64,000 nucleotides of DNA, from IMG/VR virus record IMGVR_UViG_3300032242_000818, positions 32,001 through 96,000 of that record, one strand, 5' to 3'. Position numbers and translations under genes: made by a program. Positions 8,401-58,755 of the stretch are shown here, in pieces. This DNA comes from a virus. The notes under the pieces were generated by a model that did not search any database, was not told the DNA's origin, and saw nothing but the letters and a program-made list of their open reading frames with translations. The first letter of the stretch is position 1. Each line of letters starts with the position of its first letter.

Positions 8401-8431
8401 TTTTATCACCTTTTTCATCATTTATACAACT

Positions 8432-8512: not shown

Positions 8513-8520
8513 CTAAAGGG

Positions 8521-9512: not shown

Positions 9513-9513
9513 A

Positions 9514-10262: not shown

Positions 10263-10263
10263 A

Positions 10264-11085: not shown

Positions 11086-11172
11086 TTGTTTTTCCAATCA
11101 ATTTGTAAGGTAAAAAATAATATTCTAACATAAGATATGCTACCATATCAAAGAAAAAATACGGATCCACCT

Positions 11173-11703: not shown

Positions 11704-11704
11704 C

Positions 11705-20590: not shown

Positions 20591-21256
20591 TTATTTTGTT
20601 AATTCTTTTGCTAAAGGAAATACTTCAGCAATAACCTTTGCGCACTCACGTGCGACTTCTTGGTGTTCTTTTTGTGTACCATTTGCAGAACGGAGTTCAA
20701 TAAAATGAATCCAGCTACGCAATGTACCATTCATATATAAGCGAGAAACAGTAAGTCCTTCTGGTAGAACTGCTCTTGCTTGCTCTTTAGCAATGCCATT
20801 TTGTATTGCCCAATTATATGCTTCTTGGGCTTCATTGATAACACGCTTTTGTCTTTCTTCCCACCATGCTGCCAATGCTAGATTTGTATTCTCAACACTA
20901 TTTTGACGATTCTTCGTATCTTGAAGTCGGGCTTCTCTAAGAACGAAAGATAAGTCTTTTGTTGGATCAGCATATCGCTGGCTAAATTCCTGGAATGAAA
21001 AAGAACGATGACGTAATATTTGTCTTGCTATATCGCGAGTAGTTTCAATTTCTAAGCAAGCACTAACCATCTCTAGAGGTGACCAGTGTTGATGCTTAAT
21101 TAAATATTTAATTAACTTCTCTGATGTATCTGTGTTGAACTGGTTGCTTGGATTGCTCACACGTGCACAGAACGCAACTAACTCCTGTACATCTACTAAA
21201 CCCTCTTGAAACATTTTATCATCAGGTTTACTATAACTAATCATTCTAACATTCAT
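20591..21256 (-). CDS. thyX: flavin-dependent thymidylate synthase
   Basis: ARVS, HWSPLE, RHRSFSFQEFSQRY, EQARAVLP, TQKEH. Confidence 0.97.
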   Translation of the reverse strand: MNVRMISYSKPDDKMFQEGLVDVQELVAFCARVSNPSNQFNTDTSEKLIKYLIKHQHWSPLEMVSACLEIETTRDIARQILRHRSFSFQEFSQRYADPTKDLSFVLREARLQDTKNRQNSVENTNLALAAWWEERQKRVINEAQEAYNWAIQNGIAKEQARAVLPEGLTVSRLYMNGTLRSWIHFIELRSANGTQKEHQEVARECAKVIAEVFPLAKELTK

Positions 21257-32889: not shown

Positions 32890-32896
32890 TATTTAG
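32890..32896 (-). promoter_or_regulatory. possible late promoter (CTAAATA)
   Basis: CCTAAATAT 25 bp upstream of 32864. Confidence 0.5.
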
Positions 32897-33588
32897 GTCA
32901 GTCTATTATACTTGCGATCCCATTTACCTATCTGGTCTATGATCTTACGAGTGGCTTGATTGTTTCTTAAATCATAGTTAAATGTTTTTAAGAAATAGTG
33001 AAGTGTAGAAGAATCTCGTTTCTTTAAGTAACGATTCAACAGGATGTTGATATCTACATTTGGTCTGCGCATTTTATAGTCTAGATACACACAATGCGCA
33101 TATGCTTGTATCTCATCAAACTCAGAGAGATATGCTCTCTGTTCATCTTTCTTAGCGTTTCCTACTTTCTTATAGGGAACTACATAATTGCTCCATTCAT
33201 CACCACGTCTATCATATTGCATAAAATGAATCATCTCATGCATCAGAGTTTGTAGTAAACGAAATTTAAATGATGCCCAAGATTTATCGCTGAATGGGAA
33301 TATGTTATATTTTTGTGTATAGATTTGAAGAGTTATCTGGCGTTTTTCTGTGTCATACTCGCCACCGATAGCCACATAGTTTTCAGTCCACTTTGCTTTG
33401 GACTTTTCTTTGCGCCACTCAATTTTAGTGCGCCATTTTCTTACGTAATTTGATAACCCTATTGGATTGTTTTTATAAGAATCTAGATCCACCCATACTT
33501 TTGATGGAATGAGTTTTGCTCTGAATGGACGCTCATAGAAATTGAGTAAGTCCAGCCAGTCGTAAGTTGCGTTCTCTAGGAATTTCAT
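32893..33588 (-). CDS. HExxH zincin-like protein
   Basis: LMHEMIHFMQ plus downstream YL...DEIQAYA. Confidence 0.6.
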   Translation of the reverse strand: MKFLENATYDWLDLLNFYERPFRAKLIPSKVWVDLDSYKNNPIGLSNYVRKWRTKIEWRKEKSKAKWTENYVAIGGEYDTEKRQITLQIYTQKYNIFPFSDKSWASFKFRLLQTLMHEMIHFMQYDRRGDEWSNYVVPYKKVGNAKKDEQRAYLSEFDEIQAYAHCVYLDYKMRRPNVDINILLNRYLKKRDSSTLHYFLKTFNYDLRNNQATRKIIDQIGKWDRKYNRLT

Positions 33589-33608: not shown

Positions 33609-34217
33609 TTAACTAAATTGCTTCTCCAAAAATGCAAGAACCTTCCCCTGCTCCTCTAAGTTAGTATTTGCAAACTCAGTAATATATGGCATAAGGTCAA
33701 AATTAGACATCAAGTTACTATATTTAGTTTCTCTTCCACGTAGGAATTGCTCGGACTGATCGGATCCACGATCTCGATATCTTTGTTCTAGGATATCCTT
33801 TGGAGCCTTTAAAAATACCACTTCTAGTTGGGTGTTCGGGAGACACATACAGAACTCTAGGAATGATTGGTTAAAAACCCTATCTCCCTCGAAAAGGATA
33901 TTACAGTTGTGGGAAGCGACCCATTCTTGAAGAGGTGGTTGAACAGCCATAGAAAGTCGATCGGTTCCAGCAAAGGTTTCGCCCTCGTCATATTTACCGA
34001 GGATGTATAGATCTCGTTCTGTATTATAAGAGGCATTTACTAATTTAGCAGGAGAAACTTCTAGCCAAGTTTTATCTTCCATAAACTTACGGAACAAAGT
34101 AGTCTTGCCAGTTCCAGGAGAACCACCAACTGCGATAATCTTTCTGGTCTTCATAGGATTAGTTACCCTTTCTACATTAATAGTGTCAACTACACCTACG
34201 TTCTCATTAAATGCCAT
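33609..34217 (-). CDS. P-loop kinase, 5-hydroxymethyluracil-DNA kinase-like
   Basis: GGSPGTGKTT, LGKY...FAGTDRLS, LFEGDR; next to aGPT-PPlase gene. Confidence 0.8.
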   Translation of the reverse strand: MAFNENVGVVDTINVERVTNPMKTRKIIAVGGSPGTGKTTLFRKFMEDKTWLEVSPAKLVNASYNTERDLYILGKYDEGETFAGTDRLSMAVQPPLQEWVASHNCNILFEGDRVFNQSFLEFCMCLPNTQLEVVFLKAPKDILEQRYRDRGSDQSEQFLRGRETKYSNLMSNFDLMPYITEFANTNLEEQGKVLAFLEKQFS

Positions 34218-34623
34218 TTCTAATTTCCTCAATCATTTTAATCAGTTCTTCTTTACTAAAAACCCAAACACGTCCACGAAAAGAATGTGTATCAGTATTC
34301 TGATCAGTTCTCTTTGTAAAGGTCATCTTGTTAGTAACTTCTTCTGAAGCATACTTTGATAGATTACGTTTAATCTCAGTAGCATAATCTACATTACTTT
34401 CACGTAGTTTCATAAGTTCAAACTCTTGAACTCGATGTTCAACAGTCAACTCATTTAGTGAGTAACGATCTAAAATCATTTCAACTGGTGGGCGGACAGC
34501 AATAGTTGCACCAGTGGTATTCATAGTTATAGTATTACCAGTAGTATTTGAAACTGCAATATTATTCATATCTTCCCAGATAGCATTAGTAAGCCCAGTC
34601 ATTTGTCCTTTAGTCACAGCCAT
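34207..34623 (-). CDS. hypothetical protein
   Basis: 138 aa, coupled on both sides. Confidence 0.6.
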   Translation of the reverse strand: MAVTKGQMTGLTNAIWEDMNNIAVSNTTGNTITMNTTGATIAVRPPVEMILDRYSLNELTVEHRVQEFELMKLRESNVDYATEIKRNLSKYASEEVTNKMTFTKRTDQNTDTHSFRGRVWVFSKEELIKMIEEIRNGI

Positions 34624-35639
34624 TAAAAATTCTCCAATCCAATTAAAACAGGTTCTTCATCATCAAACATCCACTCCAAGTTTTCTATTTTACCTGAACT
34701 TAGGAAAGAAGAAAACTTTTCTTTATCAATTCCTCTTTTGTGATCAAGACGAAAGTCAATAGTCTCTTCACGTGATTGCCAAAGAACATCCCAATCAATA
34801 CCATACCAACCATCGTTTTCTGCTTTAATAATCTCTTCTGCCTGACGATCTAAGTAGTAACCAAGATAACGACCATGATGTTCTCTAAAGATTTTCTTAA
34901 AAGAACATAAGCAGGTTTCCATTGTAAAGAAGTCTACTTGCGTTTCCAAATCTGGGAATCTATCTTTGGTTTCGGTGAGAATATATCTGGCTTCTGACTC
35001 AAGATTCGTATACTCGCTACTAGTGAGTTTTCTATCCATATCGTCGTGTCTGCCGAGGGCGCAAAGTAATCCATTACGATGAGAACGAGAGCCATCAAAA
35101 TCATCCAGCATGAGACTAGTAGGGCTGATGCGAATACCAGCGGTATGCTTAAGATGCTGAAGGTAAAACCAAGTGGAATAACGACCAAACTTATGCAGCC
35201 CAGACTTAACGCTTTCCCACAGATTATCAAAGTTGACTTCCTCATTATCTCCATAAAATCTTTCCAATCTTTCTCGTTGAGATCTGCCACCAATGAACTG
35301 TTGATATGAAGCAAACATGGCAGGTAGATGCCCCTTGTTCCACTTTGTATCAGTTTGGTAGCGTAATCGTTTATAGTTTGTTGCGTTCCACTGCGTAATG
35401 CGATCAACTGTTGCTAATTCAAAATCAGGAAACTCATTCATCAATACCCATGCAGTTGGTAATTGATAAGTGTTGCCGTATAGCCAAGCGAGCCAAAGAC
35501 GTTGTTCATCATTATGCTCGTAACGCTTATTGAGATAGTTCGTGCACCAAACAGCTGGGTCACAATCATCATACTTTAATGACCATGCATACCAGCGGAT
35601 GAACGCTTCTCTATTATTTTGCGGAAGTCTGTAATCCAT
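34623..35639 (-). CDS. amino acid:DNA transferase (alpha-glutamyl/putrescinyl thymine pyrophosphorylase clade 2-like)
   Basis: D.DP, WL..LYG.TY, HhH-like FGRYSTWFY, METCLCSFKK, RYLGYY. Confidence 0.8.
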   Translation of the reverse strand: MDYRLPQNNREAFIRWYAWSLKYDDCDPAVWCTNYLNKRYEHNDEQRLWLAWLYGNTYQLPTAWVLMNEFPDFELATVDRITQWNATNYKRLRYQTDTKWNKGHLPAMFASYQQFIGGRSQRERLERFYGDNEEVNFDNLWESVKSGLHKFGRYSTWFYLQHLKHTAGIRISPTSLMLDDFDGSRSHRNGLLCALGRHDDMDRKLTSSEYTNLESEARYILTETKDRFPDLETQVDFFTMETCLCSFKKIFREHHGRYLGYYLDRQAEEIIKAENDGWYGIDWDVLWQSREETIDFRLDHKRGIDKEKFSSFLSSGKIENLEWMFDDEEPVLIGLENF

Positions 35640-35952
35640 CTAGATGTTCAAATTCCATTTTTAATTCATTAATTAACATATTTAATTGCTTGATTGCAGT
35701 TTTCTCTTCACGAATTTCTCTTGCTGCTTTATTCTGATCATCAAAACATACGCAACAATATCCACGAACATCGTTTTTGCGTTTCCTTGTGCTTTGAGAT
35801 TTTAAATAAAATGCGCTTAGTGGTTTATATACCCTACAGCATTTACACCAAGATACTGCTCTTGATTTTGTTCCATCAAGATTAGTTACCCATGCATCTT
35901 CAGCAATTTTCCTCGTAACAACTGCTAAATTTTCTTTTCTTAAGTGTGTCAT
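35614..35952 (-). CDS. Zn-finger protein (CxxC...CxxC)
   Basis: CKCC...KPLSAFY...YCCVC. Confidence 0.6.
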   Translation of the reverse strand: MTHLRKENLAVVTRKIAEDAWVTNLDGTKSRAVSWCKCCRVYKPLSAFYLKSQSTRKRKNDVRGYCCVCFDDQNKAAREIREEKTAIKQLNMLINELKMEFEHLDGLQTSAK

Positions 35953-35971
35953 AGTGTGTTCCCAAAATTAT

Positions 35972-36000
35972 ATTTTACTATAAAAATGAATGAAAGTCAA
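35972..36000 (-). promoter_or_regulatory. internal sigma70-type promoter
   Basis: TTGACT-17 bp-TAAAAT overlapping the GNAT stop. Confidence 0.6.
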
Positions 36001-36532
36001 GTTGTTTTTGATTCTCTGCAAGACTGAATAAGGTTACGCAACCACCCTTACCCTTGCGATTAACAGCCTTATTGATAGTTGTATCAGAGTAATCGTAGTC
36101 AGCATCTGCATAAGTATCTCCACCTATACGAAAGATAGATAACTGACACCCACTCTTTTGAGCACCCCAAAACTTAAATCCAAGTCGTTCATAGAAACCA
36201 ACTGCCGTCTTCTCGGATGATACTCTAAAGTAAAGAGCACCATTAGATCTTGCACGCTTCAATGAATCTTCACATAATAATCTTGCAGAACCTTTGCCTC
36301 TATGTTTTGAAAATGTATGTAAGAGTTGTAAGTTTGCTACGTGAGGTTTGGTCTTTGAGATTGTAGTAATTATGGCAGCAGTTAATTCATTACCATCATA
36401 TACGCCAATACAGCAATTCCATTGATCCTGCATATCTGCTTTGGCAACAAATGTTTTGGCAAAGTTATCTTCTTTGTCTTCAGTAATTGCTGCTATAAAA
36501 TCAGCACGTGAACACTTAGACAACTTCAACAT
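35978..36532 (-). CDS. GNAT family acetyltransferase
   Basis: HRGKGSARLL (motif A), AVGFYERLGF (motif B). Confidence 0.88.
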   Translation of the reverse strand: MLKLSKCSRADFIAAITEDKEDNFAKTFVAKADMQDQWNCCIGVYDGNELTAAIITTISKTKPHVANLQLLHTFSKHRGKGSARLLCEDSLKRARSNGALYFRVSSEKTAVGFYERLGFKFWGAQKSGCQLSIFRIGGDTYADADYDYSDTTINKAVNRKGKGGCVTLFSLAENQKQLDFHSFL

Positions 36533-37400
36533 ATGTTCTTACTTTTTCTCCGCGATCTTCTGGATGTTTAGTTTTCTCCCAGCCAATAAACTGAAGTAGA
36601 TCCCACTGCATTGGAGGGAATGTATAATGATTGTTTGAAATTAATTCTAATACACTTTGACCATCATTCAATGCAGCATCAAGGAAGTCTTGAACGAAAC
36701 GAAAACAAGATTCAAGTTCAGTACGATCCATTGTACCACGAAATAATCTAAACTCTACAGTATCAATATGCTTCAGTGCGTACATATTAATAGCGTAGCG
36801 GAATGGGCGACCCATTGATACTCCATCTTTACCAGCAGCGTGCATCTTAATGAATGAATCAAAGTCAGTTGCTTTGTTGATAATGTTATCTGACATATAG
36901 TCAGGCATTGCTCGACCACCATCAAACTTCAAATACATCTTTGCGCCTTTGGCACCTTTCATTTGGTTATGCTCAAAGTAACCATAGACGTGCTCAATAG
37001 TATCTGTTTGGTTTTCTTTAATGTATTTTGTTAATCGTTTCAATGCTTCGATATCGTCCCTAAGACCAGGAACTCTACAATGAATATGAGTGTGAGCGGT
37101 AACACCCACAGTGGGAGGAGTGCCATTATCATCAAACATTTTATAAAGTTCAAAATATCTGTCAACCTGTTCTTCCCAAGTCTTAGTAGGTTTTGTATTA
37201 ATCTCACCACCAACTGGTGGAGTTTCTCCAAGTGGGTCAGCGCAGACATATTTGTATGGTTCTCTTAGGTTAATAATATCTCGTTCTGAGTATTCCCAAG
37301 AACCAAGATGCTCTGGAATGGAAAAAGAGCGAGGAACATCACCCCACTCTATTTCCATACCGTATGTATATTTGTCAGTTGGATATGGTTTCAGTTTCAT
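36516..37400 (-). CDS. putative amidoligase (carboxylate-amine ligase, GCS2-like fold)
   Basis: TYGMEIE, GEINT.P, HTHIH, RYAIN, TVEFRLFRGT. Confidence 0.8.
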   Translation of the reverse strand: MKLKPYPTDKYTYGMEIEWGDVPRSFSIPEHLGSWEYSERDIINLREPYKYVCADPLGETPPVGGEINTKPTKTWEEQVDRYFELYKMFDDNGTPPTVGVTAHTHIHCRVPGLRDDIEALKRLTKYIKENQTDTIEHVYGYFEHNQMKGAKGAKMYLKFDGGRAMPDYMSDNIINKATDFDSFIKMHAAGKDGVSMGRPFRYAINMYALKHIDTVEFRLFRGTMDRTELESCFRFVQDFLDAALNDGQSVLELISNNHYTFPPMQWDLLQFIGWEKTKHPEDRGEKVRTYVEVV

Positions 37401-38082
37401 AATCTACTTTCTGTAAATCTGGTTTGTTAGTTTTAACAAGATTAACATTCATTGTCATATTTGAATCAAATGTCAAGTAAGTGTTCATTGGCACTTCAAC
37501 TGCTGGAATTCTAATACCTGCACGTTTAGGAATATCCGCAGTAGAAGTAATTATAACTCCATTCACTAAAGAAGTCAAATATAATGGACGCTTACCATTT
37601 CTGAAAACAACAAGATGTTTATCATTAACTGATAACTCACAAACTGCCATAGATGCATCTGGATATTCACCAAGAGCATTTGCAGAATGTAAAACAAGTT
37701 CTGAATCATTCTTTGTTTCACAAGGGTAATGAAATAACTTACCCCAATTCTCTGGGAGTTCTTGAGTGATAACTCCGTTGTGAACAATAGAATGTGTTTC
37801 GCTTGCTATCGGCTGGTTATACAATAAATCGCTAGTACTATATCTACAGTGACCAATAAGGTAAAGATTACCGTCATCATTAACCATCTCCTCTAAATTA
37901 TCTAGATGAACAAATTTATCCGCAGGAACTGATTCCTTAAATGTAGTAATCCTACCATCTTTGATATAAGATAAACCAGTTGCATGCATTCCTCTAATCT
38001 TGGACTCGAGGAACACTTTACGGATAGATTCAAAATCCTTGGCAGTAGGATTCTGAATCAAAGCACCAATAACACTACACAT
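37375..38082 (-). CDS. class II (Ntn) glutamine amidotransferase domain protein
   Basis: MC start, RG..ATG, GHCRYST, NQP, HNGVI, NDSE, RN..RPL. Confidence 0.88.
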   Translation of the reverse strand: MCSVIGALIQNPTAKDFESIRKVFLESKIRGMHATGLSYIKDGRITTFKESVPADKFVHLDNLEEMVNDDGNLYLIGHCRYSTSDLLYNQPIASETHSIVHNGVITQELPENWGKLFHYPCETKNDSELVLHSANALGEYPDASMAVCELSVNDKHLVVFRNGKRPLYLTSLVNGVIITSTADIPKRAGIRIPAVEVPMNTYLTFDSNMTMNVNLVKTNKPDLQKVDYETETISN

Positions 38083-38678
38083 TATTTTAACTCCAAAAAT
38101 GACATTGTGTTTTCTATACCAATACTTCCTTTAAAGAATGTATTAAAAGATAATGAAATTCTATTTTCAGAAGATAGATTAGTATCTACCGAATGTGTTA
38201 GATCAGAAGGAAACAAAATTAACATACCTTTTTTTACATTTAAATTAAATTTTTTACAATTGAATTGATTAACTATTTTTGTATTATAAAATAAATTATT
38301 TTCTTTTTTCTTGTACAATTTTATGCTTTCTGGGATGTCAGGACTAATATAATAAACTCCACTGATTATACTATTATCGTGTGTATGCATATGGTGTGAT
38401 GTGTTTGGTTTATTAACATTTATCCATGATTGTGTTACTACTAATGATACATCTGTTTCTGGACATAAAACATTTTGAACATATTCATCTAACTTTTCAG
38501 AAATCTTTTCAGATATCTCAGGCATACTATTTAAAACATATGTGTTTAAACTGTAAGAATTCCCAGAATAATGATTAAACTCAGTTTCTAATGAATTAAC
38601 AAATTCTAATTCATTATCGTTTAATAATCCAACATCTTCAATATAAAGTGGAATTGGAAATAATGGCAAGAGAGTCAT
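38082..38678 (-). CDS. putative 2OG-Fe(II) oxygenase (TIGR02466-like)
   Basis: LFP.P, QSWIN, HH.HTH.NS.ISGVYY, LFPS.L.HSV, RISLSFN; AT-rich. Confidence 0.85.
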   Translation of the reverse strand: MTLLPLFPIPLYIEDVGLLNDNELEFVNSLETEFNHYSGNSYSLNTYVLNSMPEISEKISEKLDEYVQNVLCPETDVSLVVTQSWINVNKPNTSHHMHTHDNSIISGVYYISPDIPESIKLYKKKENNLFYNTKIVNQFNCKKFNLNVKKGMLILFPSDLTHSVDTNLSSENRISLSFNTFFKGSIGIENTMSFLELK

Positions 38679-39991
38679 TAAAAGAAACTTTCTAGTGAAG
38701 AAGCATTAGATTCTGGATGATACTTATGAAGTTCTTCAGTACCAAGTTTAGATTCTACGTAATCATACCATTCTTGAGTAGTCCACATACCCTCAGAAAC
38801 ACCATTCCATAGTGGTTTCCATAAAGGATGTTCTTTATTCAATCTACGAGATTCAACAAAGTTATAACGGCATTCTTCATACTCATGAGAACCAAGATCT
38901 AGCATCTTCTCACGGAAATAACATACCAATGATACACGCTCAGAACCTTCGTCACATTTGATTTCAGTATTACCGTGCATAACTTCATGATTATTAATTA
39001 AGAGCAAGTCACCTGGACGAACATTAACTGCAACACGATACTCAGGGGCAATCAAATATCCTCCAGTATACTTACCATCATTAGATAATGTTAGCAAGTT
39101 AGATAGACCTGAATTCAAATCACCTGCATCATAATGAGCAGCAGTTCTAAATGTTTTATTGACAGTGATAGTTGTAAATGGAGTTCCAGGAACAAGGAAT
39201 CTTGGATCTAGTTTTGATGCTGCTTCCATTTGTGCAGCAAATCGTTCTGGTAAAAGATTCTTAAAACCTTCAGAAAGATTTTGAAGGAATGGATATGACA
39301 TTTGAAACTTCTCAAAATTGTCACGGGTATAAGAAGTTGCACGACCATAAGGGATACGTGGGTAACGATCAAACCAACCAGCAATACCTGAGTTAACAGC
39401 ACTACCATAGGTAGTTGTGCTAACCATCTTCATGACTTCTTCAGTAGCCTTTGCTCGTTCTTCGCGTGTAAAAGTTTTAATTGAATCAAGCCATGCTTCA
39501 AAATCAAACTTACCACGGAAACGAGAGATGACCCATACATTATTTTTACCATCACCACCAGCCATCTTCTTATCTACTTCACGTGGATATTTGGCACGAA
39601 CAGTATCGATGACATCTTCATTATCAAGAGCAGAGTTACGATTCTTAATGAGGGCACGCATCATCTCATCTTGATAGTTTGTTACCCATTCTCTTCCTTC
39701 AGTTGTGGCAAGAATGCCATCTTTGATACCAGAAGCAAGTCCTCGATTCTCTGTTCGAATAGCTGCTTCTCTAAGTCCGACATATGCTGCATCTTGCTGC
39801 TCTTTACTAAAATAATTTTTACGAAACTTCAATACGATTCGTTTTTCTGAGATTGGATCTTCACCAAATTGTGGTGGCATATAAACATCAGTATCTTCTT
39901 CAATAAGAAAATCATAATTTGATTCGTCAACAAACTTACCAAGAAGATGTTCACAATTATGTTTTTGTTCAGCTACAATTATCTTAACCAT
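38678..39991 (-). CDS. TET/JBP-family DNA pyrimidine dioxygenase
   Basis: SGIAG.FDR, FTTIT.N..FRTAAHYDAGD (HxD), HGNT, RVSLVCYFRE. Confidence 0.85.
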   Translation of the reverse strand: MVKIIVAEQKHNCEHLLGKFVDESNYDFLIEEDTDVYMPPQFGEDPISEKRIVLKFRKNYFSKEQQDAAYVGLREAAIRTENRGLASGIKDGILATTEGREWVTNYQDEMMRALIKNRNSALDNEDVIDTVRAKYPREVDKKMAGGDGKNNVWVISRFRGKFDFEAWLDSIKTFTREERAKATEEVMKMVSTTTYGSAVNSGIAGWFDRYPRIPYGRATSYTRDNFEKFQMSYPFLQNLSEGFKNLLPERFAAQMEAASKLDPRFLVPGTPFTTITVNKTFRTAAHYDAGDLNSGLSNLLTLSNDGKYTGGYLIAPEYRVAVNVRPGDLLLINNHEVMHGNTEIKCDEGSERVSLVCYFREKMLDLGSHEYEECRYNFVESRRLNKEHPLWKPLWNGVSEGMWTTQEWYDYVESKLGTEELHKYHPESNASSLESFF

Positions 39992-40000
39992 ATCTTTCTC

Positions 40001-41398
40001 CTAAAACTTAAACCCACTGAAACCTTCTGCTTTCTGTCTCTTTCCAAACTCACTCTTATCAAACATAGGAACATCAACTTCCTTTGTCTGCCCAGAGTCA
40101 GATAAACCTACTTGAGCAGATGCTTCAACATCATATAACTTCATCTTCGCTCGATCAACTCCGATAACAAATCTCTTATAGAAACTAGGATCGTTGTAAC
40201 GATTCTTTAATTGTTTCACAATAATCTGATTCAGTTGTTCAAGTTCTTCATTTGAAACTAACGCAAACATCAAGTCAGCAGTGGCAGGTAATCCAAACGA
40301 TTCAGAAGTATCTTCCAAACCTGGATCGCTATTTGTAAATCCACTTCGAGTAGTTTGTGTGGCTGAAACGATTGGAACATTATATTCAACAGCCAAACCA
40401 CGCAACTCCTCAGCGATGGACTTAATATATGTATAAGAATTAATACTTCCACCTTGCTTCATACGCTGGCTTGCGCAAATGTTTAGATAGTCAATGAAGA
40501 TAATATCAGGTAAGAACTCACGCTTCAACTTCAACTCTTCAAGCAATGCTCTAAAGTGCCCAGCATGCGCACCTGCAGTTGGATATTCTTTAACGATTAA
40601 TTTACCTTGAGTCTTACTTGAGATTTTCTTAATACGATTATCAAAGATATCTTTATCAATAACTTTCAACTCATCCATGGTAAGGTTCAACAAGTTGGCA
40701 TCGATACGTTCAGCGATTCGTTCCTCAGCCATTTCCATAGTAATGTAAAGAACATTCTTACCTTGAACTAAAACACCAGCAGCCACGTGACACATAAACA
40801 AAGATTTACCAACACCAGTGCCAGCCAATACGATGTTAAGGGTTTTCTTCGATAGACCACCCTTAGTGATCTTGTTAAACATATCCAAATCGAAAGGCAA
40901 CTTCTCTTCAACCCTATGATAATATTCATAACGAGCATCACTATCTTCGATATAGTCATGACCAACATGGTTATCAAAAGAAACGGCAAGAGCATCAGAG
41001 AGTATAGAAGGAATTGAGTCCTTGGTGTGGACTTTATCTCCTCCATCGATGATTTTAATAGAGTGTAGAATCGCATTATAAACTGCCTTATCTTTACAAA
41101 ATTTCTCAGTTTGTTCCATCATCCAAGAATCATTAACTTCCTCATGAGTCATTGTTTCTACGTAAGTATTAATGTCAGAAAGTTCTTTGTCATTAATGTC
41201 AGTTCGATTACCAACTTCAATAGAAAGAATTTCTTTTGTTAATGGCTTATTATATTTGGTAAAGAAATCCACAATGATCTTAGCAATGATTGCTTCTTTT
41301 CTTTCAGAGAAATAATCAGTGCGGATAAAAGGGATTACTTTACGACAATATTCTTCATCATATACAAGATTAGTTAAAATCTTTGTTTCAATTCTCAT
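40001..41398 (-). CDS. gp41: replicative DNA helicase (T4 gp41-like)
   Basis: AGTGVGKS, TMEMAE, IDYLNI, SATQTTR, SESFGLPATAD, KQLKNRY. Confidence 0.97.
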   Translation of the reverse strand: MRIETKILTNLVYDEEYCRKVIPFIRTDYFSERKEAIIAKIIVDFFTKYNKPLTKEILSIEVGNRTDINDKELSDINTYVETMTHEEVNDSWMMEQTEKFCKDKAVYNAILHSIKIIDGGDKVHTKDSIPSILSDALAVSFDNHVGHDYIEDSDARYEYYHRVEEKLPFDLDMFNKITKGGLSKKTLNIVLAGTGVGKSLFMCHVAAGVLVQGKNVLYITMEMAEERIAERIDANLLNLTMDELKVIDKDIFDNRIKKISSKTQGKLIVKEYPTAGAHAGHFRALLEELKLKREFLPDIIFIDYLNICASQRMKQGGSINSYTYIKSIAEELRGLAVEYNVPIVSATQTTRSGFTNSDPGLEDTSESFGLPATADLMFALVSNEELEQLNQIIVKQLKNRYNDPSFYKRFVIGVDRAKMKLYDVEASAQVGLSDSGQTKEVDVPMFDKSEFGKRQKAEGFSGFKF

Positions 41399-43009: not shown

Positions 43010-43558
43010 CTATGGGTTGCTCTTTGAATGTGGAACATCAAACACAAATGTGATTCTAGTACAGTCTCCAATGTTTTCTGTTCCGTGTAGTAGTTTATTA
43101 TTGAACCAAAGTAAAGTTCCAGGTTCAACATCATAATGTTCATCACCTACAAAATATCTATATCTTCCTTGGATGGATAGATGATAACGATCTCTTGTAA
43201 GGTAATATTTTCCTTCATCAATATGGCGTCCAACATATCCTCCAACTGGAAGAGATAAGAATCCACAACGACTAAATTTTTTAAAGTTTCTTTTAAGGAA
43301 ACCAACTATCTCTGTGTGATGTTTGATTGCTTCAGTTGGTATACATATCTCACTATCGCCAACAAAGTCTTCTAATTTTTCTACGCCACCAACAACAAGC
43401 TGAAGATTGCCAACTGGTATGTCGTCATATCCTCTATCGATAAGTGATTGAGCACCTTCAATACTTTTCTGAGCCATCCAATCTTCAGGATGTTCTTTTA
43501 GTTGTTTCAATATCTTTGAAACATTAATCCCAGTTTTAATGATACGAATATTATCCAA
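43010..43558 (-). CDS. aspartyl/asparaginyl beta-hydroxylase-like oxygenase
   Basis: HIDEG.YY, RYHL, WFNN...H, RI..VFD. Confidence 0.8.
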   Translation of the reverse strand: MDNIRIIKTGINVSKILKQLKEHPEDWMAQKSIEGAQSLIDRGYDDIPVGNLQLVVGGVEKLEDFVGDSEICIPTEAIKHHTEIVGFLKRNFKKFSRCGFLSLPVGGYVGRHIDEGKYYLTRDRYHLSIQGRYRYFVGDEHYDVEPGTLLWFNNKLLHGTENIGDCTRITFVFDVPHSKSNP

Positions 43559-46037
43559 AGAAATCCTCTAATGAACTTTGTTCTGATGTATTCCAACCCA
43601 GTGGCTCAATAACAATCTGAAGAGCATCGAGAAATACTTTCTCAAATTGTTTATCATAATCTATGTAGGAATGCAATTCAAACTCTGGTGGCAACTCTTG
43701 ACTAAACGCAATGACATCTTCTTGAAATGGATTTGGTTTACGAACATAGACAAACTTAATCTTATCACCATCACGGATTGGTTGATACTTTTTATCAAGA
43801 CCCATCTTCTTGGTGTAGTGATTAAACAATAATGCGCCACGAACATGAATCGGAGTTCCCTTAGAATAGATAGGTGAACCAGCATACTGTTTCATACCAT
43901 TTACGCCACGAGGGAATGCGATATCTTGAACAGGTAGTTTGTCAAACTCTTTACGGAAATCCATAATATAATTCTGAAGATCTGACTGATTACCTTTAAG
44001 AATAACCTCAATCGAGTCACGCAACTTATCACGAATGACTGCAGGTGTTGAAGACTTGACCATCTCAAGACCCATAACTTTAATCTTAGGTTTCGCATAT
44101 TGAACACCTTCAGAGTTATGAACATTAAGAATATATCTTTTCTTGGCAGTCCAGATACCTTTATCAGCAAGAACTTCTCGCTTCATCTGCATCTTTTGAC
44201 TATACGCATTCATATAGTCAGCGAGTTCTTGATAGCCTGTATCAATAAATGGTTGAAAGATACCCTCACAAACCTTATCCATAAACTTAATCTTTTGTTC
44301 ATCAGTTTGGCCAGCACATGCTTGCTCAACTAGAGTTTCAAGAGTAAGATAGATTGAGTCAGTATCAATCGCAACTACATAATCTTTATCCTCAGTCTTG
44401 AGAGTTTTGTTCATGAACGCATTTAACTTGTTAGCCATCCAGCGAATAGATAACTGACCAGAAGTAGTAATACCTTCAGCCATACGGATATCGAAGTATC
44501 GGAAATACTGATTACCCATGGCACCATAAGCAGAGTTCAAAGCAATCTTCATAGCCATCTGAAGATTATTCAAACGAGAAATATCTTTGAGCAAGTGTTT
44601 TTGAGACTTATCTTTCTCATACTCTTGTTGAACTTTCAGCATTTGTTTCTTAAATTTGCTTCGGTCAACATACATCTTTTCCATTAACTCAGGCATGAAC
44701 CCTTTGAACTCTTTTGTATAAGTCCAACCATTTGCAGTCAAAGCAAGATCTCGTTGCTTAACATAAGTTGTATCAATTTCTTGATTCAAAAGTTTGTCAA
44801 CAGTCACGCTAATCTTTTCAGAAGTCAAAGTCTCAGGACTGATATTATACTGCATAATCAAATGCGGATATAATGAGTTCAAATCAAATGAAGCCATCCA
44901 TTTATGAAGACCAATGATTGGATCTTTAACGTACGCACCCTCGAACTGAGCATCTTTACCAGAGTGTGACTTCGCAGGAACAACAATACCCTTCTTGCGT
45001 AAATGGTTATAGATGATTGTATCCCACATACGAACCTGCGAATAAACATCTTCGAAATTAATCTTAGCGTTATATGCCATGGTTAAATGCAGTTCAATCA
45101 AACGCATCTTATCTTCTAGTTTGTCAACCAACTCTACGTCATGAATATTATAATCTACGAATTGTTGCCAGTGATTAGTATAGAAATCCTTGAAAGATTC
45201 TCCTGGATTAACCTTCTTCTTGTCACCAAGTTCTTGTTCAGCGATATAATCAAGGCGATACGATTCTTGTTTAGAATATGTATATTTCTTATACAGTTCA
45301 AGATAATCCAACTGAGCGATACCAATAATGTCATAGTGAATCTCTTCATTACCTTTAATGAAAGTCTTGCGTTCATTGACATAACCCCATGGACTCAATT
45401 TATTAGATTCACCATCACCAAGTTCACGTTCAATCCTACGGATAAGATACGGCATGTCAAAGAAGTCAGTATTCCAACCAGTGATAACATCGGGATGACT
45501 CTTAGTCCAAAACTCTAGAAATTGAATAAGAAGATTATGTTCATCTTTACAGTTAACATAGATTACATCTTCGCGTGGATTGACGTATGCTTTGCTACCA
45601 AAAGTAATAATTCGTTTAGTAGAAAGTTCCTTAACAGTGATTAATAGGATCTCTTCATTGGCAGACTTGATATCAGGGAAACCATTCTCAGTTGAAGTCT
45701 CAATGTCAATGGTAAATACTTTAATCTGCTCCATATCCCAATTGATATCATGGGAATAATTGTCGCTGATGTATTGGTATGCGTAGTTTGAGTTTCCATA
45801 AACATCAAACCCCTGAACACCCTCATATCGTTTAATGAAGTCGCGTGTTTCTTTAATAGTCCCAGGTTGGACTTCATCAACGAATGTTCCCTCCAGTGTC
45901 TTCCACTTGGAGGGTTTCTTTGAAGTTACGTAAAGGGTAGGACTGAAGTCTAGTTTACGTTGGTAGCGTTTACCATTCTCCACACCACGAATGAAAATTC
46001 GATCTCCAATCGGATGCACCGAAGTATAAAATTCCAT
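43551..46037 (-). CDS. gp43: family B DNA polymerase (T4 gp43-like), uninterrupted
   Basis: DIET, GWN..FFD, YNI.DV, SFDLNSLYP, KIALNSAYG, DTDS, KKRY. Confidence 0.98.
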   Translation of the reverse strand: MEFYTSVHPIGDRIFIRGVENGKRYQRKLDFSPTLYVTSKKPSKWKTLEGTFVDEVQPGTIKETRDFIKRYEGVQGFDVYGNSNYAYQYISDNYSHDINWDMEQIKVFTIDIETSTENGFPDIKSANEEILLITVKELSTKRIITFGSKAYVNPREDVIYVNCKDEHNLLIQFLEFWTKSHPDVITGWNTDFFDMPYLIRRIERELGDGESNKLSPWGYVNERKTFIKGNEEIHYDIIGIAQLDYLELYKKYTYSKQESYRLDYIAEQELGDKKKVNPGESFKDFYTNHWQQFVDYNIHDVELVDKLEDKMRLIELHLTMAYNAKINFEDVYSQVRMWDTIIYNHLRKKGIVVPAKSHSGKDAQFEGAYVKDPIIGLHKWMASFDLNSLYPHLIMQYNISPETLTSEKISVTVDKLLNQEIDTTYVKQRDLALTANGWTYTKEFKGFMPELMEKMYVDRSKFKKQMLKVQQEYEKDKSQKHLLKDISRLNNLQMAMKIALNSAYGAMGNQYFRYFDIRMAEGITTSGQLSIRWMANKLNAFMNKTLKTEDKDYVVAIDTDSIYLTLETLVEQACAGQTDEQKIKFMDKVCEGIFQPFIDTGYQELADYMNAYSQKMQMKREVLADKGIWTAKKRYILNVHNSEGVQYAKPKIKVMGLEMVKSSTPAVIRDKLRDSIEVILKGNQSDLQNYIMDFRKEFDKLPVQDIAFPRGVNGMKQYAGSPIYSKGTPIHVRGALLFNHYTKKMGLDKKYQPIRDGDKIKFVYVRKPNPFQEDVIAFSQELPPEFELHSYIDYDKQFEKVFLDALQIVIEPLGWNTSEQSSLEDFFG

Positions 46038-56608: not shown

Positions 56609-58099
56609 TTATTTAATATAATCAAATTTAACAACAATGTTATTTTGTTCGAGCAATACCTTATGATCAATATAACTCGCTACTTGGATATCTTCCAAGT
56701 AACTATTATACTTCATTAATTCTTGCTCCACAAGTTTTTCACCATAGGTTTTTGTTAAGTTCTGCAGGATATATTCACGATCAAACATATCCATACCTGC
56801 CATAACCTGAGCATAACTATACGCATTAAACAAATTGTATTCATTCAAGAAATATGTCTTTGATGGTAAAGTCTTTTTCCAAATATCTAAATGCTCTTTA
56901 TTAAAATCAGTAACAGTCATAATCTCTGGAATTGTTTTCCAGAAATCGCTATCTTTTCTTTTACCAAGATAATGTATCTGAATGAAATCAACAATGTTAT
57001 CAAAACATTCAGTAAATCTTTTATTATATTGTTTAGTAATTTTATCTCGTTCAACTTCCCAAACTGGTAACATTCTAACGAAACCAAATGCTTGCATAAT
57101 CGAGTTTCCGATACTAGATGCTTCTAAAGGCTCAACAAATGAAGCAGATAATCCAATACTTACGCAATTGTTTATCCAAAATTGGTCAACTCTTCCAGCA
57201 TCAAACTTAATATCCTTTGCGACATTAACTTTCTCAGAATAGTGAGATTGAATCTCATCGTGGGCTTGAGTTGCGTTAATAAAATCATCACAGAAAACAT
57301 ACCCATTACCATATCTTCCCTGAGTTGGAATTCTCCAATTCCATCCAGAGGATAATGCTTTAGATAATGTATATGGTTTAAGTTCAGTAATATTTTCAGT
57401 AGGAAATGCCAAAGCATGATTCATTGGTAGGTACTTTTTGTATGATACCCACTTAGAACCTAATTTTGTTGATATGATCCTTTTGAATCCACTACTATCA
57501 ATAAAGAAATCTGCGTTATGCAAAGTTCCGCTTTCACCAACTAGAGCAGAAACATCTCCATTATCAGAAACCATAACATCAGTTACAGTTGTCTTTACAA
57601 AATTAATACTTGCTTCTTCACAAACTTTGTGTAGAAACTCGTTCAACTTGAATGTATTAAATTGATATTGATTAACTGAATTAAGACCAAATGATGTATT
57701 AATTAAATTGGTTTCATTAAGAACATCTTCAGTCTTAATGTTATTTCCAATTAAGGTTTTAATAAAAGTTAATTTCTCTGATAAATCATCAGCAGAAGTA
57801 TATTCACTATAAAATGGATCAACGATTGCATGGAAATAACTTTTTCCATCACCATTCCAATTTTCAAACTTGATACCTTTCTTTAAGGTACCATGAGTTT
57901 CTCTAACTAATCGTTGCATTGAAATGCCACAATATTCTGCGAATATTCTCCAATGCTCAGTTGAGCCTTCACCAACTCCAATAATACCGATTGAATCTGA
58001 TTCAATTACAGTAACATTACAAAGAGGAAATGACTTTTTAATTATAAGTGCTGAAACTAACCCAGCAGTTCCAGCACCGAGAACAATAATGTTTTCCAT
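56609..58099 (-). CDS. flavin-dependent (tryptophan) halogenase family protein
   Basis: GAGTAG, IGVGEGS, LK.GIKFENW, IDSSGF, GWNWRIP (WxWxIP), FVEPLEAS. Confidence 0.9.
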   Translation of the reverse strand: MENIIVLGAGTAGLVSALIIKKSFPLCNVTVIESDSIGIIGVGEGSTEHWRIFAEYCGISMQRLVRETHGTLKKGIKFENWNGDGKSYFHAIVDPFYSEYTSADDLSEKLTFIKTLIGNNIKTEDVLNETNLINTSFGLNSVNQYQFNTFKLNEFLHKVCEEASINFVKTTVTDVMVSDNGDVSALVGESGTLHNADFFIDSSGFKRIISTKLGSKWVSYKKYLPMNHALAFPTENITELKPYTLSKALSSGWNWRIPTQGRYGNGYVFCDDFINATQAHDEIQSHYSEKVNVAKDIKFDAGRVDQFWINNCVSIGLSASFVEPLEASSIGNSIMQAFGFVRMLPVWEVERDKITKQYNKRFTECFDNIVDFIQIHYLGKRKDSDFWKTIPEIMTVTDFNKEHLDIWKKTLPSKTYFLNEYNLFNAYSYAQVMAGMDMFDREYILQNLTKTYGEKLVEQELMKYNSYLEDIQVASYIDHKVLLEQNNIVVKFDYIK

Positions 58100-58755
58100 T
58101 AAAACTCGAAAGAAGAATCTGCCTCAACTGCTACATAATAAACCAAATCACCTGCGCCTTTAAAACGAGAGATCTTCTTGCTCGAAACACTAACAGCATA
58201 ATCACCTGGGATCATCTTTAGATTTTCTACTTTCAAATTAACTTTGAATTTCTTATCGCTCGCGCCAACAGTAGAGTTATAAGAGTTACCAGTGGCGTTC
58301 TTTTTGTCGCCAACCACAACAGTCATAGTTGAACCATCACCAACGATTGATACATCAGAAGCACGCAATACTGAAGCAGTACGTTGGATCATACTGAGCA
58401 TATTTGCGCTCATGTTAAATTCAATTTCTGGATCAGGGAATGTAATTGCTTTCTGTGGTGCAGTTAGTACGCTTGCATCTGCTGCAAAGTATTTGATGCT
58501 GTTGCCACCTTGCTCGATAGTAACCCATTTGTCATTGAATGTCAATTCTGGATCTTCAAACAAAGACATCGCACCCAAGAACTCATTGAGGTCGTAGATA
58601 CCAAAGTCTGGGAAAGTTTCAGTAACAACTGCATCAGCCATTACATTCTTTTGAGCCGAGATAGTGGCTAGTTTATTGCCAGACTTCAAAAGTAAATTGC
58701 TATTAATACCAGCAAAGTTCTTGATCAAGCCTACAGTTTCTTTACTTAATTTCAT
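58099..58755 (-). CDS. gp45: sliding clamp (T4 gp45-like)
   Basis: KNFA.IN, FGIYDLNEFL, ENLKMIPG.Y.V, YYVA.E. Confidence 0.96.
   Translation of the reverse strand: MKLSKETVGLIKNFAGINSNLLLKSGNKLATISAQKNVMADAVVTETFPDFGIYDLNEFLGAMSLFEDPELTFNDKWVTIEQGGNSIKYFAADASVLTAPQKAITFPDPEIEFNMSANMLSMIQRTASVLRASDVSIVGDGSTMTVVVGDKKNATGNSYNSTVGASDKKFKVNLKVENLKMIPGDYAVSVSSKKISRFKGAGDLVYYVAVEADSSFEF

What the first reader, a model, noticed from the sequence alone, without database searches (positions are those of the whole stretch)
33609..39991. TET/JBP-initiated DNA hypermodification cluster with amidoligase, Ntn amidotransferase and GNAT: candidate pathway to an undescribed base
Seen: a co-oriented, mostly translationally coupled run right after gp41. 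It encodes a TET/JBP dioxygenase (HxD...H...RxS), a 2OG oxygenase, an Ntn amidotransferase (Cys at position 2), an amidoligase, a GNAT, a Zn-finger protein, an aGPT-PPlase2/AADT, a hypothetical protein and a P-loop kinase. Established: in phages such as ViI, M6, PhiW-14 and SP10, a P-loop kinase phosphorylates 5hmU in DNA and an AADT swaps the phosphate for an amino acid or amine. In those phages 5hmU comes from a dUMP hydroxymethylase at the nucleotide level. Similar gene neighbourhoods have been predicted computationally, but I know of no characterised product for this enzyme set. Inference: this phage has ThyX, and the window shows neither a hydroxymethylase nor a C5-methyltransferase. So T is probably oxidised to 5hmU after replication, then phosphorylated and substituted. 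The amidoligase, amidotransferase and GNAT would build or tailor the substituent by amidation, gamma-glutamyl protection/deprotection or acetylation. The likely role is shielding DNA from restriction and Cas nucleases.
Basis: partly seen in the sequence, partly recalled or inferred. Interest (0 to 1): 0.93.

Follow-up and report, generated by a model that had tools for sequence, protein, structure and literature searches.

The report
Phage thymine hypermodification gene cluster
A complete T4-like phage genome carries a tightly packed set of enzymes that most likely oxidise thymine already in its DNA and build an amide-bearing, acetylated side chain on it. This type of cluster is already published from metaviromes, but the base it makes is still unknown.

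Summary
Nine co-oriented, mostly overlapping minus-strand ORFs follow gp41. They encode a TET/JBP dioxygenase, a 2OG oxygenase, an Ntn glutamine amidotransferase, a GS-fold amidoligase, a GNAT, a Cys-rich protein, an AADT, a small unknown protein and a P-loop kinase.

The complete 164.7-kb genome has ThyX but no ThyA-like hydroxymethylase, C5-methyltransferase or ParB. The likely route is therefore T to 5hmU, then 5-phosphomethyl-U, then AADT substitution, then amide and acetyl tailoring.

Synteny in 61 related contigs defines the core as TET, GATase, GNAT, AADT and kinase. The amidoligase sits in only 14 of the 61. The 2OG oxygenase and the Cys-rich gene are sporadic inserts. The small protein is a general T4-like replication-module gene.

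This cluster type is published (Lee 2021; O'Toole 2026) with no characterised product, and this scan met it before in at least six other genomes.

One added feature: TET, AADT, GNAT and kinase end in polymerase-like tails, and the TET tail co-varies with gp43's. This hints at sliding-clamp tethering in place of ParB; a complex prediction gave only weak support.

Interest is moderate: a good experimental target, not a new kind.

The parts
38678..39991 (-). TET/JBP-family (5mYOX) dioxygenase, 437 aa. Predicted DNA thymine C5-methyl hydroxylase. Has a family-specific N-terminal ~215 aa and the C-terminal tail SSLESFF.
   Evidence: Pfam Tet_JBP 87.1 bits. phrog_24024 matches full length. H286/D288/H339/R352/S354 are invariant. 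AF2 plus Foldseek hit CcTet, NgTET1 and hTET2 at E 1e-7 to 1e-5. The N-terminal region is always fused to Tet_JBP in 1434 homologues.
38082..38678 (-). 2OG-Fe(II) oxygenase (2OG-FeII_Oxy_5), 198 aa. Accessory or sporadic insert.
   Evidence: Pfam 78.4 bits. An insert at this slot occurs in only 4 of 56 related loci, and those inserts are 27-55% identical.
37375..38082 (-). Stand-alone class II (Ntn) glutamine amidotransferase-like protein, 235 aa. Core gene.
   Evidence: Pfam GATase_6 37.4 bits. Cys2, R80, N102-G103 and D126 are invariant in 45 unique homologues. Present in both cluster types.
36516..37400 (-). Glutamine-synthetase-fold carboxylate-amine ligase (amidoligase), 294 aa. Variable module, type A clusters only.
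   Evidence: Pfam Amidoligase_2 16.7 bits, below the cut-off. AF2 pLDDT 85. VIA Z 11.0 to 1tt4, 10.5 to YbdK and about 10 to GS. Atlas TM 0.81 to an Amidoligase_2 cluster. A homologue lies between the AADT and HMUDK genes in phage Simon.
35978..36532 (-). GNAT N-acetyltransferase, 184 aa. Core; type B clusters carry a divergent 213-aa GNAT in the same position.
   Evidence: Pfam Acetyltransf_10 44.5 bits. The type B counterpart is also a GNAT and is 24% identical, E 4e-5.
35614..35952 (-). Cys-rich 112-aa protein. Sporadic insert in a variable slot, probably not a pathway enzyme.
   Evidence: Only weak endonuclease VII PHROG hits, E 1e-4. Found in only one other long locus. Relatives hold an HNH-like, a 428-aa or a 242-aa gene in this slot.
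34623..35639 (-). Amino acid:DNA transferase (AADT, formerly aGPT-Pplase2), 338 aa. Core; the most conserved gene of the cluster. Tail GLENF.
   Evidence: Pfam ADDT 86.2 bits. The E241...C245 motif METCLC is invariant in 64 homologues and aligns with the catalytic E243...C247 of PaMx11 gp46 (PMC11472151). 254 viral contigs carry relatives; the 80 kept are at least 80% identical.
34207..34623 (-). 138-aa protein of unknown function. Conserved here, but its distant relatives are not tied to modification genes.
   Evidence: No Pfam or PHROG hit. Only 49 representatives among 1.84 billion proteins. Distant homologues lie between gp44 and gp62, or near gp46/47, in other T4-like contigs that lack AADT and kinase.
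33609..34217 (-). P-loop kinase, 202 aa from the conserved ATG. Predicted 5-hmdU DNA kinase.
   Evidence: Pfam Ploopntkinase3 28.5 bits. Walker A and many residues are invariant, and Met6 of the TTG-start ORF is conserved. 23% identity, E 7e-6, to the characterised 5-hmdU DNA kinase PaMx11 gp49.
32893..33588 (-). 231-aa HExxH protein (weak SprT-like hit) downstream of the kinase in nearly all relatives. Possible associate; function unproven.
   Evidence: Pfam SprT-like 16.3 bits, below the cut-off. Found in nearly all long related loci. No homologue in cultured phages.
40001..41398 (-). gp41-type replicative helicase. Upstream context; the cluster sits in the replication module.
   Evidence: Pfam DnaB_C 75.3 bits. 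Adjacent in all long related loci.
20615..21190 (-). ThyX flavin-dependent thymidylate synthase. Context: it supplies dTMP, so the DNA is made with ordinary T.
   Evidence: PF02511 158.9 bits at G000:52615-53190.
43551..46037 (-). gp43 DNA polymerase with the C-terminal tail SSLEDFFG. Context for the tail comparison.
   Evidence: Pfam DNA_pol_B and exonuclease domains. Tail.
58099..58755 (-). gp45 sliding clamp. Context: the proposed docking partner of the tails.
   Evidence: Pfam gp45-slide_C 41 bits.

Best explanation
This is a post-replicative thymidine hypermodification cluster in the replication module of a T4-like phage.

Inferred steps:
1. DNA is made with ordinary T, because ThyX is present and no hydroxymethylase is.
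2. The TET/JBP enzyme hydroxylates the thymine C5-methyl in DNA to give 5hmU.
3. The P-loop kinase phosphorylates it to 5-phosphomethyl-U.
4. The AADT displaces the phosphate with an amine nucleophile, using covalent Cys245 catalysis. The always-linked Ntn GATase probably supplies or processes a glutamine-derived nitrogen at this step.
5. In this (type A) version, the ATP-dependent GS-fold amidoligase adds an amide-linked unit.
6. The GNAT caps a free amine with acetyl.

The product would be an uncharacterised amide-bearing, acetylated 5-substituted uracil. Its likely role is to shield DNA from host nucleases.

Status of the steps: gene identities, conserved catalytic residues and synteny are shown. 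Every chemical step and the product are inferred.
For: - Family assignments are.
- The complete DTR genome has ThyX but no PF00303, PF00145 or PF02195 match. Two further complete genomes of the lineage are the same for PF00303 and PF02195.
- Related viral contigs keep the order gp41-TET-GATase-(amidoligase)-GNAT-AADT-x-kinase. Of 61 loci holding both GATase and AADT, 14 have the amidoligase and 47 do not.
- Catalytic residues are invariant in GATase, AADT and kinase.
- The kinase is homologous to PaMx11 gp49, and the AADT catalytic motif aligns with PaMx11 gp46 (PMC8989533, PMC11472151).
- A homologous amidoligase lies between the AADT and HMUDK/Nmad5/ThyA-like genes in phage Simon. This is an independent link to thymidine hypermodification.
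- Phage T-dioxygenases are experimentally established, and their clade C1 neighbourhoods include GATase, kinase and AADT (PMC13229309).
- A GNAT acetylating 5-aminomethyl-dU is known in PaMx11 (PMC8989533).
Against: - There are no chemical or expression data.
- The clade of this TET relative to the tested enzymes could not be placed. ParB-less clade C1 members were reported inactive in E. coli assays (PMC13229309).
- The AADT is only about 27% identical to any characterised AADT, so its nucleophile is unknown.
- The kinase Pfam score is marginal.
- The genome strongly avoids some T-containing palindromes (AACGTT 0 observed versus 49 expected; AGCT 432 versus 1118). This argues against global protection of every T.
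Confidence: 0.8

Rival explanations
1. Only TET, kinase and AADT act on DNA. The GATase, amidoligase and GNAT make or modify a small molecule or a protein (peptide-tag type systems), or merely prepare the free substrate that the AADT transfers.
For: Stand-alone Ntn GATase relatives occur in many Pseudomonas, Proteus and Vibrio phages; whether those phages have an AADT was not checked. An amidoligase homologue in Vibrio phage 2.275.O sits beside 7-deazaguanine genes, not thymidine genes. From memory, unverified here: Iyer et al. 2009 predicted peptide or metabolite roles for phage amidoligase-GATase sets.
Against: The genes are interleaved between TET and AADT, with overlapping reading frames, in 61 loci. 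The amidoligase is embedded in phage Simon's AADT/HMUDK cluster. A GNAT acting on DNA-borne 5-NmdU is already documented (PMC8989533). Preparing the free substrate would still place them in the same pathway.
Confidence: 0.1
2. The TET oxidises T iteratively to 5-carboxy-U, and the amidoligase ligates an amine directly to that DNA carboxylate. This would resemble CmoY on 5-carboxymethyl-C, running parallel to or instead of the kinase/AADT route.
For: Phage T-dioxygenases support iterative oxidation (PMC13229309). ATP-dependent amide ligation onto a DNA carboxylate is established for CmoY in phage S-B43 (PMC12783734). The amidoligase has a carboxylate-amine ligase fold.
Against: In phage Simon the same amidoligase family occurs with a dUMP hydroxymethylase-type route, and no TET homologue was found in the 16.8-kb stretch searched, so no 5caU source is evident there. 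Type B clusters lack the amidoligase yet keep everything else.
Confidence: 0.05
3. The TET acts on 5-methylcytosine, or produces 5hmU only as a sparse regulatory mark, and the cluster does not give bulk protective hypermodification.
For: Tested phage T-dioxygenases are sequence-selective and modify at most about 35% of T in E. coli (PMC13229309). Several T-containing palindromes are strongly avoided in this genome.
Against: There is no C5-methyltransferase or dCMP/dUMP hydroxymethylase anywhere in the complete genome. A kinase, AADT and tailoring enzymes are pointless for a bare 5hmU mark. Sparse, motif-limited hypermodification remains compatible with the main explanation.
Confidence: 0.05

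Closest known systems
Metavirome TET_JBP + 5-HMUDK + aGPT-Pplase2/AADT contigs with amidoligase and glutamine amidotransferase genes (Lee et al. 2021, NAR, PMC8989533, Fig. 2 sequences 22-25)
   Same: Same enzyme families and the same inference: no hydroxymethylase, so the TET makes 5hmU in DNA for the adjacent kinase and AADT. The amidoligase and GATase are noted there as of unknown function. The source is also IMG/VR.
   Different: This report adds a complete genome context, shows which genes are core and which are variable, confirms the amidoligase fold, and describes polymerase-like C-terminal tails. I could not check whether this very contig was in their set.
Clade C1 ParB-dependent phage T-dioxygenase (5mYOX) cassettes (O'Toole et al. 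2026, PNAS, PMC13229309)
   Same: A TET/JBP enzyme linked with GATase, P-loop kinase and AADT. Post-replicative T to 5hmU was shown for relatives.
   Different: No ParB_N gene is found in this or five related genomes. This TET is 437 aa, with a ~215-aa N-terminal region and a gp43-like tail. The tested enzymes are ~290-300 aa (ParB-independent subclass) or carry a C-terminal extension (ParB-dependent subclass). Clade placement was not testable here.
Pseudomonas phage PaMx11 gp46-gp49 pathway to 5-acetylaminomethyl-dU (PMC8989533, PMC11472151)
   Same: The logic is kinase, then AADT (Cys-covalent catalysis), then tailoring, then a GNAT cap. The kinase and AADT are homologous.
   Different: There, 5hmU comes from a dUMP hydroxymethylase before replication, and the amine is unmasked from glycine by a FAD lyase. 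Here the source is a TET. There is no FAD enzyme, and a GATase and an amidoligase take its place.
CmoX/CmoY of Synechococcus phage S-B43 (PMC12783734)
   Same: It sets a precedent for ATP-dependent amide-bond formation on a DNA-borne side chain. Some CmoY relatives carry a glutamine-hydrolysing domain.
   Different: That system acts on cytosine, through carboxymethyl-SAM chemistry, with an asparagine-synthetase-type ligase. It has no GS-fold amidoligase and no TET, kinase or AADT.
Sliding-clamp-binding C-terminal epitopes of T4 gp43, gp55 and gp33 (PMC2988020)
   Same: These are short hydrophobic-acidic C-terminal tails. Here TET (SSLESFF) resembles gp43 (SSLEDFFG) of the same genome.
   Different: In the library searched, such tails were not found reported on DNA base-modifying enzymes. 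Binding is not shown here.

Membership tests
TET/JBP (5mYOX) dioxygenases | Pfam PF12851 match above the curated cut-off | tested here: met
   87.1 bits versus 34.9; 89.8 bits in the genome search.
TET/JBP (5mYOX) dioxygenases | HxD...H iron triad and the 2OG-binding Arg | tested here: met
   H286, D288, H339, R352 and S354 are invariant in 23 homologues.
TET/JBP (5mYOX) dioxygenases | TET-type double-stranded beta-helix fold | tested here: met
   Foldseek hits to CcTet, NgTET1, hTET2 and CMD1 at E 1e-7 to 1e-5, on a model of pLDDT 73.5.
TET/JBP (5mYOX) dioxygenases | Thymine (rather than 5mC) as substrate | not testable with these tools
   Indirect only: the complete genome has no C5-methyltransferase and no hydroxymethylase.
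ParB-dependent 5mYOX subclass (clade C1, PMC13229309) | A cognate ParB-like activator gene in the neighbourhood | tested here: not met
   No PF02195 match at E<=1 in the complete genome, and none at E<=0.01 in five related genomes. A very divergent ParB cannot be excluded.
Amino acid:DNA transferase (AADT / aGPT-Pplase2) | Pfam PF18724 match above the cut-off | tested here: met
   86.2 bits versus 26.2.
Amino acid:DNA transferase (AADT / aGPT-Pplase2) | Catalytic Cys with the upstream Glu (PaMx11 gp46 E243/C247) | tested here: met
   E241 and C245 are invariant. The local alignment pairs METCLC with VETILC. That pairwise E-value alone is weak (0.65).
Amino acid:DNA transferase (AADT / aGPT-Pplase2) | Identity of the transferred nucleophile | not testable with these tools
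   At most about 29% identity to any cultured-phage AADT.
5-hmdU DNA kinase (P-loop) | P-loop kinase homologous to a characterised 5-HMUDK and linked to an AADT | tested here: met
   The Walker A motif is invariant. E 7e-6 to PaMx11 gp49. Ploopntkinase3 28.5 bits versus 27. The kinase lies two genes from the AADT (hyp138 between) in 75 of 77 loci that hold AADT and hyp138.
5-hmdU DNA kinase (P-loop) | Match to Pfam HMUDK_HMUD1/HMUDK_hel | tested here: not met
   Not among the hits at E<=0.01. This kinase belongs to the Ploopntkinase3-type branch instead.
Class II (Ntn) glutamine amidotransferase | N-terminal nucleophile Cys after Met1, plus the Arg, Asn-Gly and Asp glutamine-site residues | tested here: met
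   C2, R80, N102-G103 and D126 are invariant in 45 homologues. GATase_6 37.4 bits versus 27. The residue roles are assigned from my knowledge of PurF and GlmS.
Class II (Ntn) glutamine amidotransferase | A fused or identified acceptor (synthase) domain | tested here: not met
   The protein is a stand-alone 235 aa. The partner is inferred, AADT being favoured because the GATase is kept where the amidoligase is absent.
Amidoligase_2 / glutamine-synthetase-fold carboxylate-amine ligases | Pfam PF12224 match above the cut-off | tested here: not met
   16.7 bits versus 22. None of the 120 best homologues has a precomputed Pfam domain.
Amidoligase_2 / glutamine-synthetase-fold carboxylate-amine ligases | GS/GCL-type fold | tested here: met
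   VIA Z 11.0 (1tt4, rmsd 4.0, 209 aligned), 10.5 (YbdK 1r8g) and about 10 (GS). Atlas TM 0.81 over 265 residues to a viral cluster in which 30% of members carry PF12224, and TM 0.62-0.70 to clusters in which 96-100% do.
GNAT acetyltransferases | Pfam GNAT match above the cut-off | tested here: met
   Acetyltransf_10 44.5 bits, Acetyltransf_1 36.3 bits.
gp45 clamp-binding proteins (T4 gp43/gp55/gp33 type) | Hydrophobic-acidic C-terminal epitope resembling that of the cognate polymerase | tested here: met
   TET SSLESFF versus gp43 SSLEDFFG. The tail is conserved in 59 TET homologues. It co-varies with gp43 in DLP6 and C48C1. A loose form of the motif occurs in 10 of 206 ORFs, 4 of them among the 9 cluster genes (p 3e-4).
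gp45 clamp-binding proteins (T4 gp43/gp55/gp33 type) | Physical binding to the clamp | tested here: inconclusive
   Complex prediction gave weak support: score 0.37, best control 0.01. The mark was reached by 58 of 80 solved complexes and 2 of 110 mismatched pairs. At 0.60 or under it was reached by only 7 of those 80, and by both mismatches that passed. The runs agree in at least 80% of contacts; partner pLDDT is 45-46. A similar clamp-peptide complex is solved, so the pass may only reflect likeness.

The most novel reading that the evidence does not exclude
The modifying enzymes (TET, AADT, GNAT, kinase) are tethered to the phage gp45 sliding clamp by polymerase-like C-terminal tails. Modification would then follow the replisome, and the clamp would replace the ParB clamp that other phage T-dioxygenases need.

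The stand-alone GATase would feed glutamine-derived ammonia to the AADT, making 5-aminomethyl-U directly. The amidoligase would then acylate that amine and the GNAT would cap it, giving a base not yet described.

This could also explain why ParB-less clade C1 enzymes were inactive in E. coli assays.
Probability: 0.3. Interest if true: 0.75.

Novelty: new variant of a known kind. Interest (0 to 1): 0.55.

Why it matters
Thymidine hypermodifications protect phage DNA from restriction enzymes, and they supply new chemistry for DNA tools.

The combination of TET with kinase, AADT, GATase and amidoligase is known only from sequence surveys. Neither the GATase nor the amidoligase step has been characterised, and no product has been identified.

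This locus offers a compact, complete and widely replicated example. Natural variants act as dropouts: with or without the amidoligase, and with an added B12-radical SAM enzyme. Together they form a ready-made design for working out each step.

If the clamp-binding tails are functional, they would show a new way of coupling base modification to replication. They would also give a practical reason why such enzymes fail in heterologous assays.

Tried and rejected
- Megablast of the cluster against 50,697 phage records found no match.
- Single-sequence phmmer against PDB chains was uninformative for the AADT, the amidoligase and the TET.
- The closest cultured TET homologues are DLP6, Cr30, C48C1 and S-CBWM1. 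The three neighbourhoods examined (DLP6, Cr30, C48C1) lack this gene order, and DLP6 and C48C1 have no AADT at all.
- The 138-aa protein gave nothing from Pfam, PHROGs or the ESM Atlas. Its homologues are unannotated. Its distant relatives lie outside modification clusters, so I dropped it as a pathway-specific factor.
- The 231-aa downstream gene has only sub-threshold SprT-like signals, and I did not fold it.
- Promoter and terminator scans showed no meaningful excess inside the cluster, and no late-promoter TATAAATA lies in it.
- No supplementary sequences of the published 5mYOX set were available. Clade C1/C2 placement could not be done.
- GATC is not depleted.
- I rejected the gamma-glutamyl protect/deprotect reading, and a split asparagine-synthetase-like GATase+amidoligase as the only GATase role, because the two genes occur independently.

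Full report
**What is there.**
- The window is bases 32001-96000 of a 164,717-bp IMG/VR virus record with direct terminal repeats, rated complete.
- Between 33609 and 39991 the minus strand carries nine co-oriented ORFs directly downstream of a DnaB-type gp41 helicase.
- Pfam places them above cut-off as Tet_JBP (87.1 bits), 2OG-FeII_Oxy_5 (78.4), GATase_6 (37.4), GNAT (44.5) and ADDT (86.2). Ploopntkinase3 is marginal (28.5 versus 27).
- Amidoligase_2 is below its cut-off (16.7 versus 22). Two small proteins have no family.
- Reading frames overlap by 1 nt at three junctions and by 11-26 nt at four. No late promoter lies inside the cluster and no promoter excess is seen there; terminator-like sites are 11 against 4.3 expected, several of them inside coding sequence.
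In the TET these are H286-x-D288, H339 and R352-x-S354. In the amidotransferase they are Cys2, R80, N102-G103 and D126. The kinase has its Walker A motif.
- The conserved kinase start is the ATG at 34217, not the TTG at 34232.

**The doubtful members.**
- The amidoligase has 610 homologues, and none of the 120 best carries a Pfam annotation.
- Its AF2 model (pLDDT 85.3) aligns with YbdK-type carboxylate-amine ligases, glutamine synthetases, gamma-glutamylcysteine ligases and PafA at Z 9-11. It also matches ESM Atlas clusters annotated Amidoligase_2 at TM 0.62-0.81. The fold assignment therefore stands.
- The TET model (pLDDT 73.5) matches CcTet, NgTET1, human TET2 and CMD1.
- The TET's first ~215 residues are a family-specific region, always fused to the oxygenase domain in 437-454-aa proteins (phrog_24024).

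**Source of the hydroxymethyl group.**
- The whole genome has ThyX. It has no ThyA-like enzyme (the fold of dUMP and dCMP hydroxymethylases), no C5-cytosine methyltransferase and no ParB.
- Two further complete genomes of the lineage likewise lack ThyA-like and ParB genes.
- So the DNA is made with ordinary T, and the only evident route to 5hmU is oxidation of T in DNA.

**Synteny.**
- 254 viral contigs encode relatives of the AADT; the 80 best, which were kept, are at least 80% identical.
- Among those 80, 61 hold both GATase and AADT, all behind gp41 and TET. Fourteen have the amidoligase (type A, as here). Forty-seven lack it (type B) and carry a divergent GNAT directly after the GATase.
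- The 2OG oxygenase slot is filled in 4 of 56 loci, by proteins only 27-55% identical.
- The Cys-rich gene's slot holds unrelated genes elsewhere.
- Four loci insert a B12-binding radical SAM enzyme after the AADT.
- The core is therefore TET, GATase, GNAT, AADT and kinase, with swappable tailoring modules.
- The 138-aa protein is conserved here. Its distant relatives, however, lie between gp44 and gp62, or near gp46/47, in contigs without AADT or kinase. It is not pathway-specific.

**Links to characterised enzymes.**
- The kinase aligns with PaMx11 gp49, a biochemically defined 5-hmdU DNA kinase (23% identity, E 7e-6).
- The AADT motif METCLC aligns with the catalytic E243...C247 of PaMx11 gp46 (PMC11472151).
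- The amidoligase family recurs in phage Simon between an AADT and HMUDK, Nmad5 and a ThyA-like enzyme. That is a classical pre-replicative thymidine hypermodification cluster, with no TET or GATase homologue in the 16.8-kb stretch searched.
- It also recurs beside 7-deazaguanine genes and an Ntn hydrolase in a Vibrio jumbo phage.
- Because GATase and amidoligase occur independently, the GATase's constant partner is more likely the AADT. This suggests glutamine-derived nitrogen enters at the substitution step. That is inference only.

**Literature.**
- Lee et al. 2021 (PMC8989533) already describe IMG/VR contigs that combine TET_JBP, 5-HMUDK and AADT with amidoligase and glutamine amidotransferase genes of unknown function. 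They draw the same inference about T oxidation, and they showed a GNAT acetylating 5-aminomethyl-dU.
- O'Toole et al. 2026 (PMC13229309) proved phage T-dioxygenase activity. They link the ParB-dependent clade C1 with GATases, kinases and AADTs. They note that ParB-less C1 members were inactive in their assays.
- No paper in the library characterises the GATase or the amidoligase step, or a product.
- This scan has met the same cluster type in at least six other genomes.

**The tails.**
- The TET ends in SSLESFF and gp43 in SSLEDFFG. RNase H ends in ELEDF and the AADT in GLENF. The GNAT and the kinase have weaker versions.
- The TET and AADT tails are conserved across homologues of 46-96% identity.
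- The TET tail tracks the polymerase tail in other phages. In DLP6 it is ATLGDFFV against ATLDSFFA. In C48C1 it is ISLEEFFV against ATLEDFFG.
- A loose form of the motif occurs in 10 of 206 ORFs, four of them among the nine cluster genes (p 3e-4).
- T4 gp43, gp55 and gp33 bind gp45 through such tails (PMC2988020).
- A complex prediction of gp45 with TET residues 385-437 gave weak support only. The score was 0.37 and the best control 0.01. The mark was reached by 58 of 80 solved complexes and 2 of 110 mismatched pairs. At 0.60 or under it was reached by only 7 of those 80, and by both mismatches that passed. The runs agree in at least 80% of contacts, and the partner's pLDDT is 45-46. A solved clamp-peptide complex exists, so this may reflect likeness only.

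**Verdict.**
The cluster type is published.
- What remains open is the chemistry of the GATase and amidoligase steps, the final base, and whether the tails tether the enzymes to the clamp.

Noticed in passing
window 32893-33588 (-): A 231-aa protein with an HExxH motif (MHEMIH) and a sub-threshold SprT-like hit lies directly downstream of the kinase in nearly all related loci. It has no homologue in cultured phages. Speculation: a protease that clears trapped covalent AADT-DNA adducts.
   Followed up: partly
L018:11017-12513, also L016, L012, L015: Four related clusters insert a 498-aa B12-binding radical SAM enzyme between the AADT and the 138-aa gene. This is a further natural variant of the pathway.
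   Followed up: partly
window 35614-35952; L018:9589-10026; L006:8715-10001; L044:9277-10005: The slot between GNAT and AADT is a hot spot. It holds a Cys-rich 112-aa gene here, an HNH-like 145-aa gene, a 428-aa gene (faint ParB-like PHROG hit, E 3e-4) or a 242-aa gene in relatives.
   Followed up: partly
whole genome G000: There is strong palindrome avoidance: CCGG 0 observed versus 76 expected, GGCC 56 versus 209, CGCG 98 versus 241, AGCT 432 versus 1118, AACGTT 0 versus 49, GGCGCC 2 versus 20 (both strands). T-free sites would not be shielded by a T modification. Avoided T-containing sites suggest motif-limited modification.
   Followed up: partly
L177:5984-6460, L180:6001-6423: Distant homologues of the 138-aa protein sit between the clamp-loader genes gp44 and gp62, or near gp46/47, in other T4-like contigs. 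It looks like a small replication-module protein of unknown role.
   Followed up: partly
L169 (phage Simon PQ683277) 4882-13114: This unannotated record carries a thymidine hypermodification cluster: AADT, a 456-aa unknown, an amidoligase homologue, an LMW phosphatase, HMUDK, Nmad5, a ThyA-like enzyme and an HD phosphohydrolase.
   Followed up: partly
L168 (Vibrio phage 2.275.O) 7896-13104: An amidoligase homologue lies next to QueF-like, QueC-like, Ntn aminohydrolase and GTP cyclohydrolase I genes. This suggests amide tailoring of a 7-deazaguanine base.
   Followed up: no
L002 (Caulobacter phage Cr30) 9001-17894: The cultured phage Cr30 has a TET homologue (42%), an AADT (180 bits) and a kinase homologue (36%) within 9 kb. 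I found no report of its DNA chemistry. It is a tractable model.
   Followed up: partly
window 4010-4978 (-) and 22325-22648 (-): The T4 RNase H homologue ends in ELEDF. A 107-aa coiled-coil protein (DUF7201) ends in LLDKFFK. These are further candidate clamp-binding tails.
   Followed up: no
window 4890-5540 (-): A second, unrelated 2OG-Fe(II) oxygenase (2OG-FeII_Oxy_3) lies elsewhere in the genome, overlapping the RNase H gene's start region.
   Followed up: no
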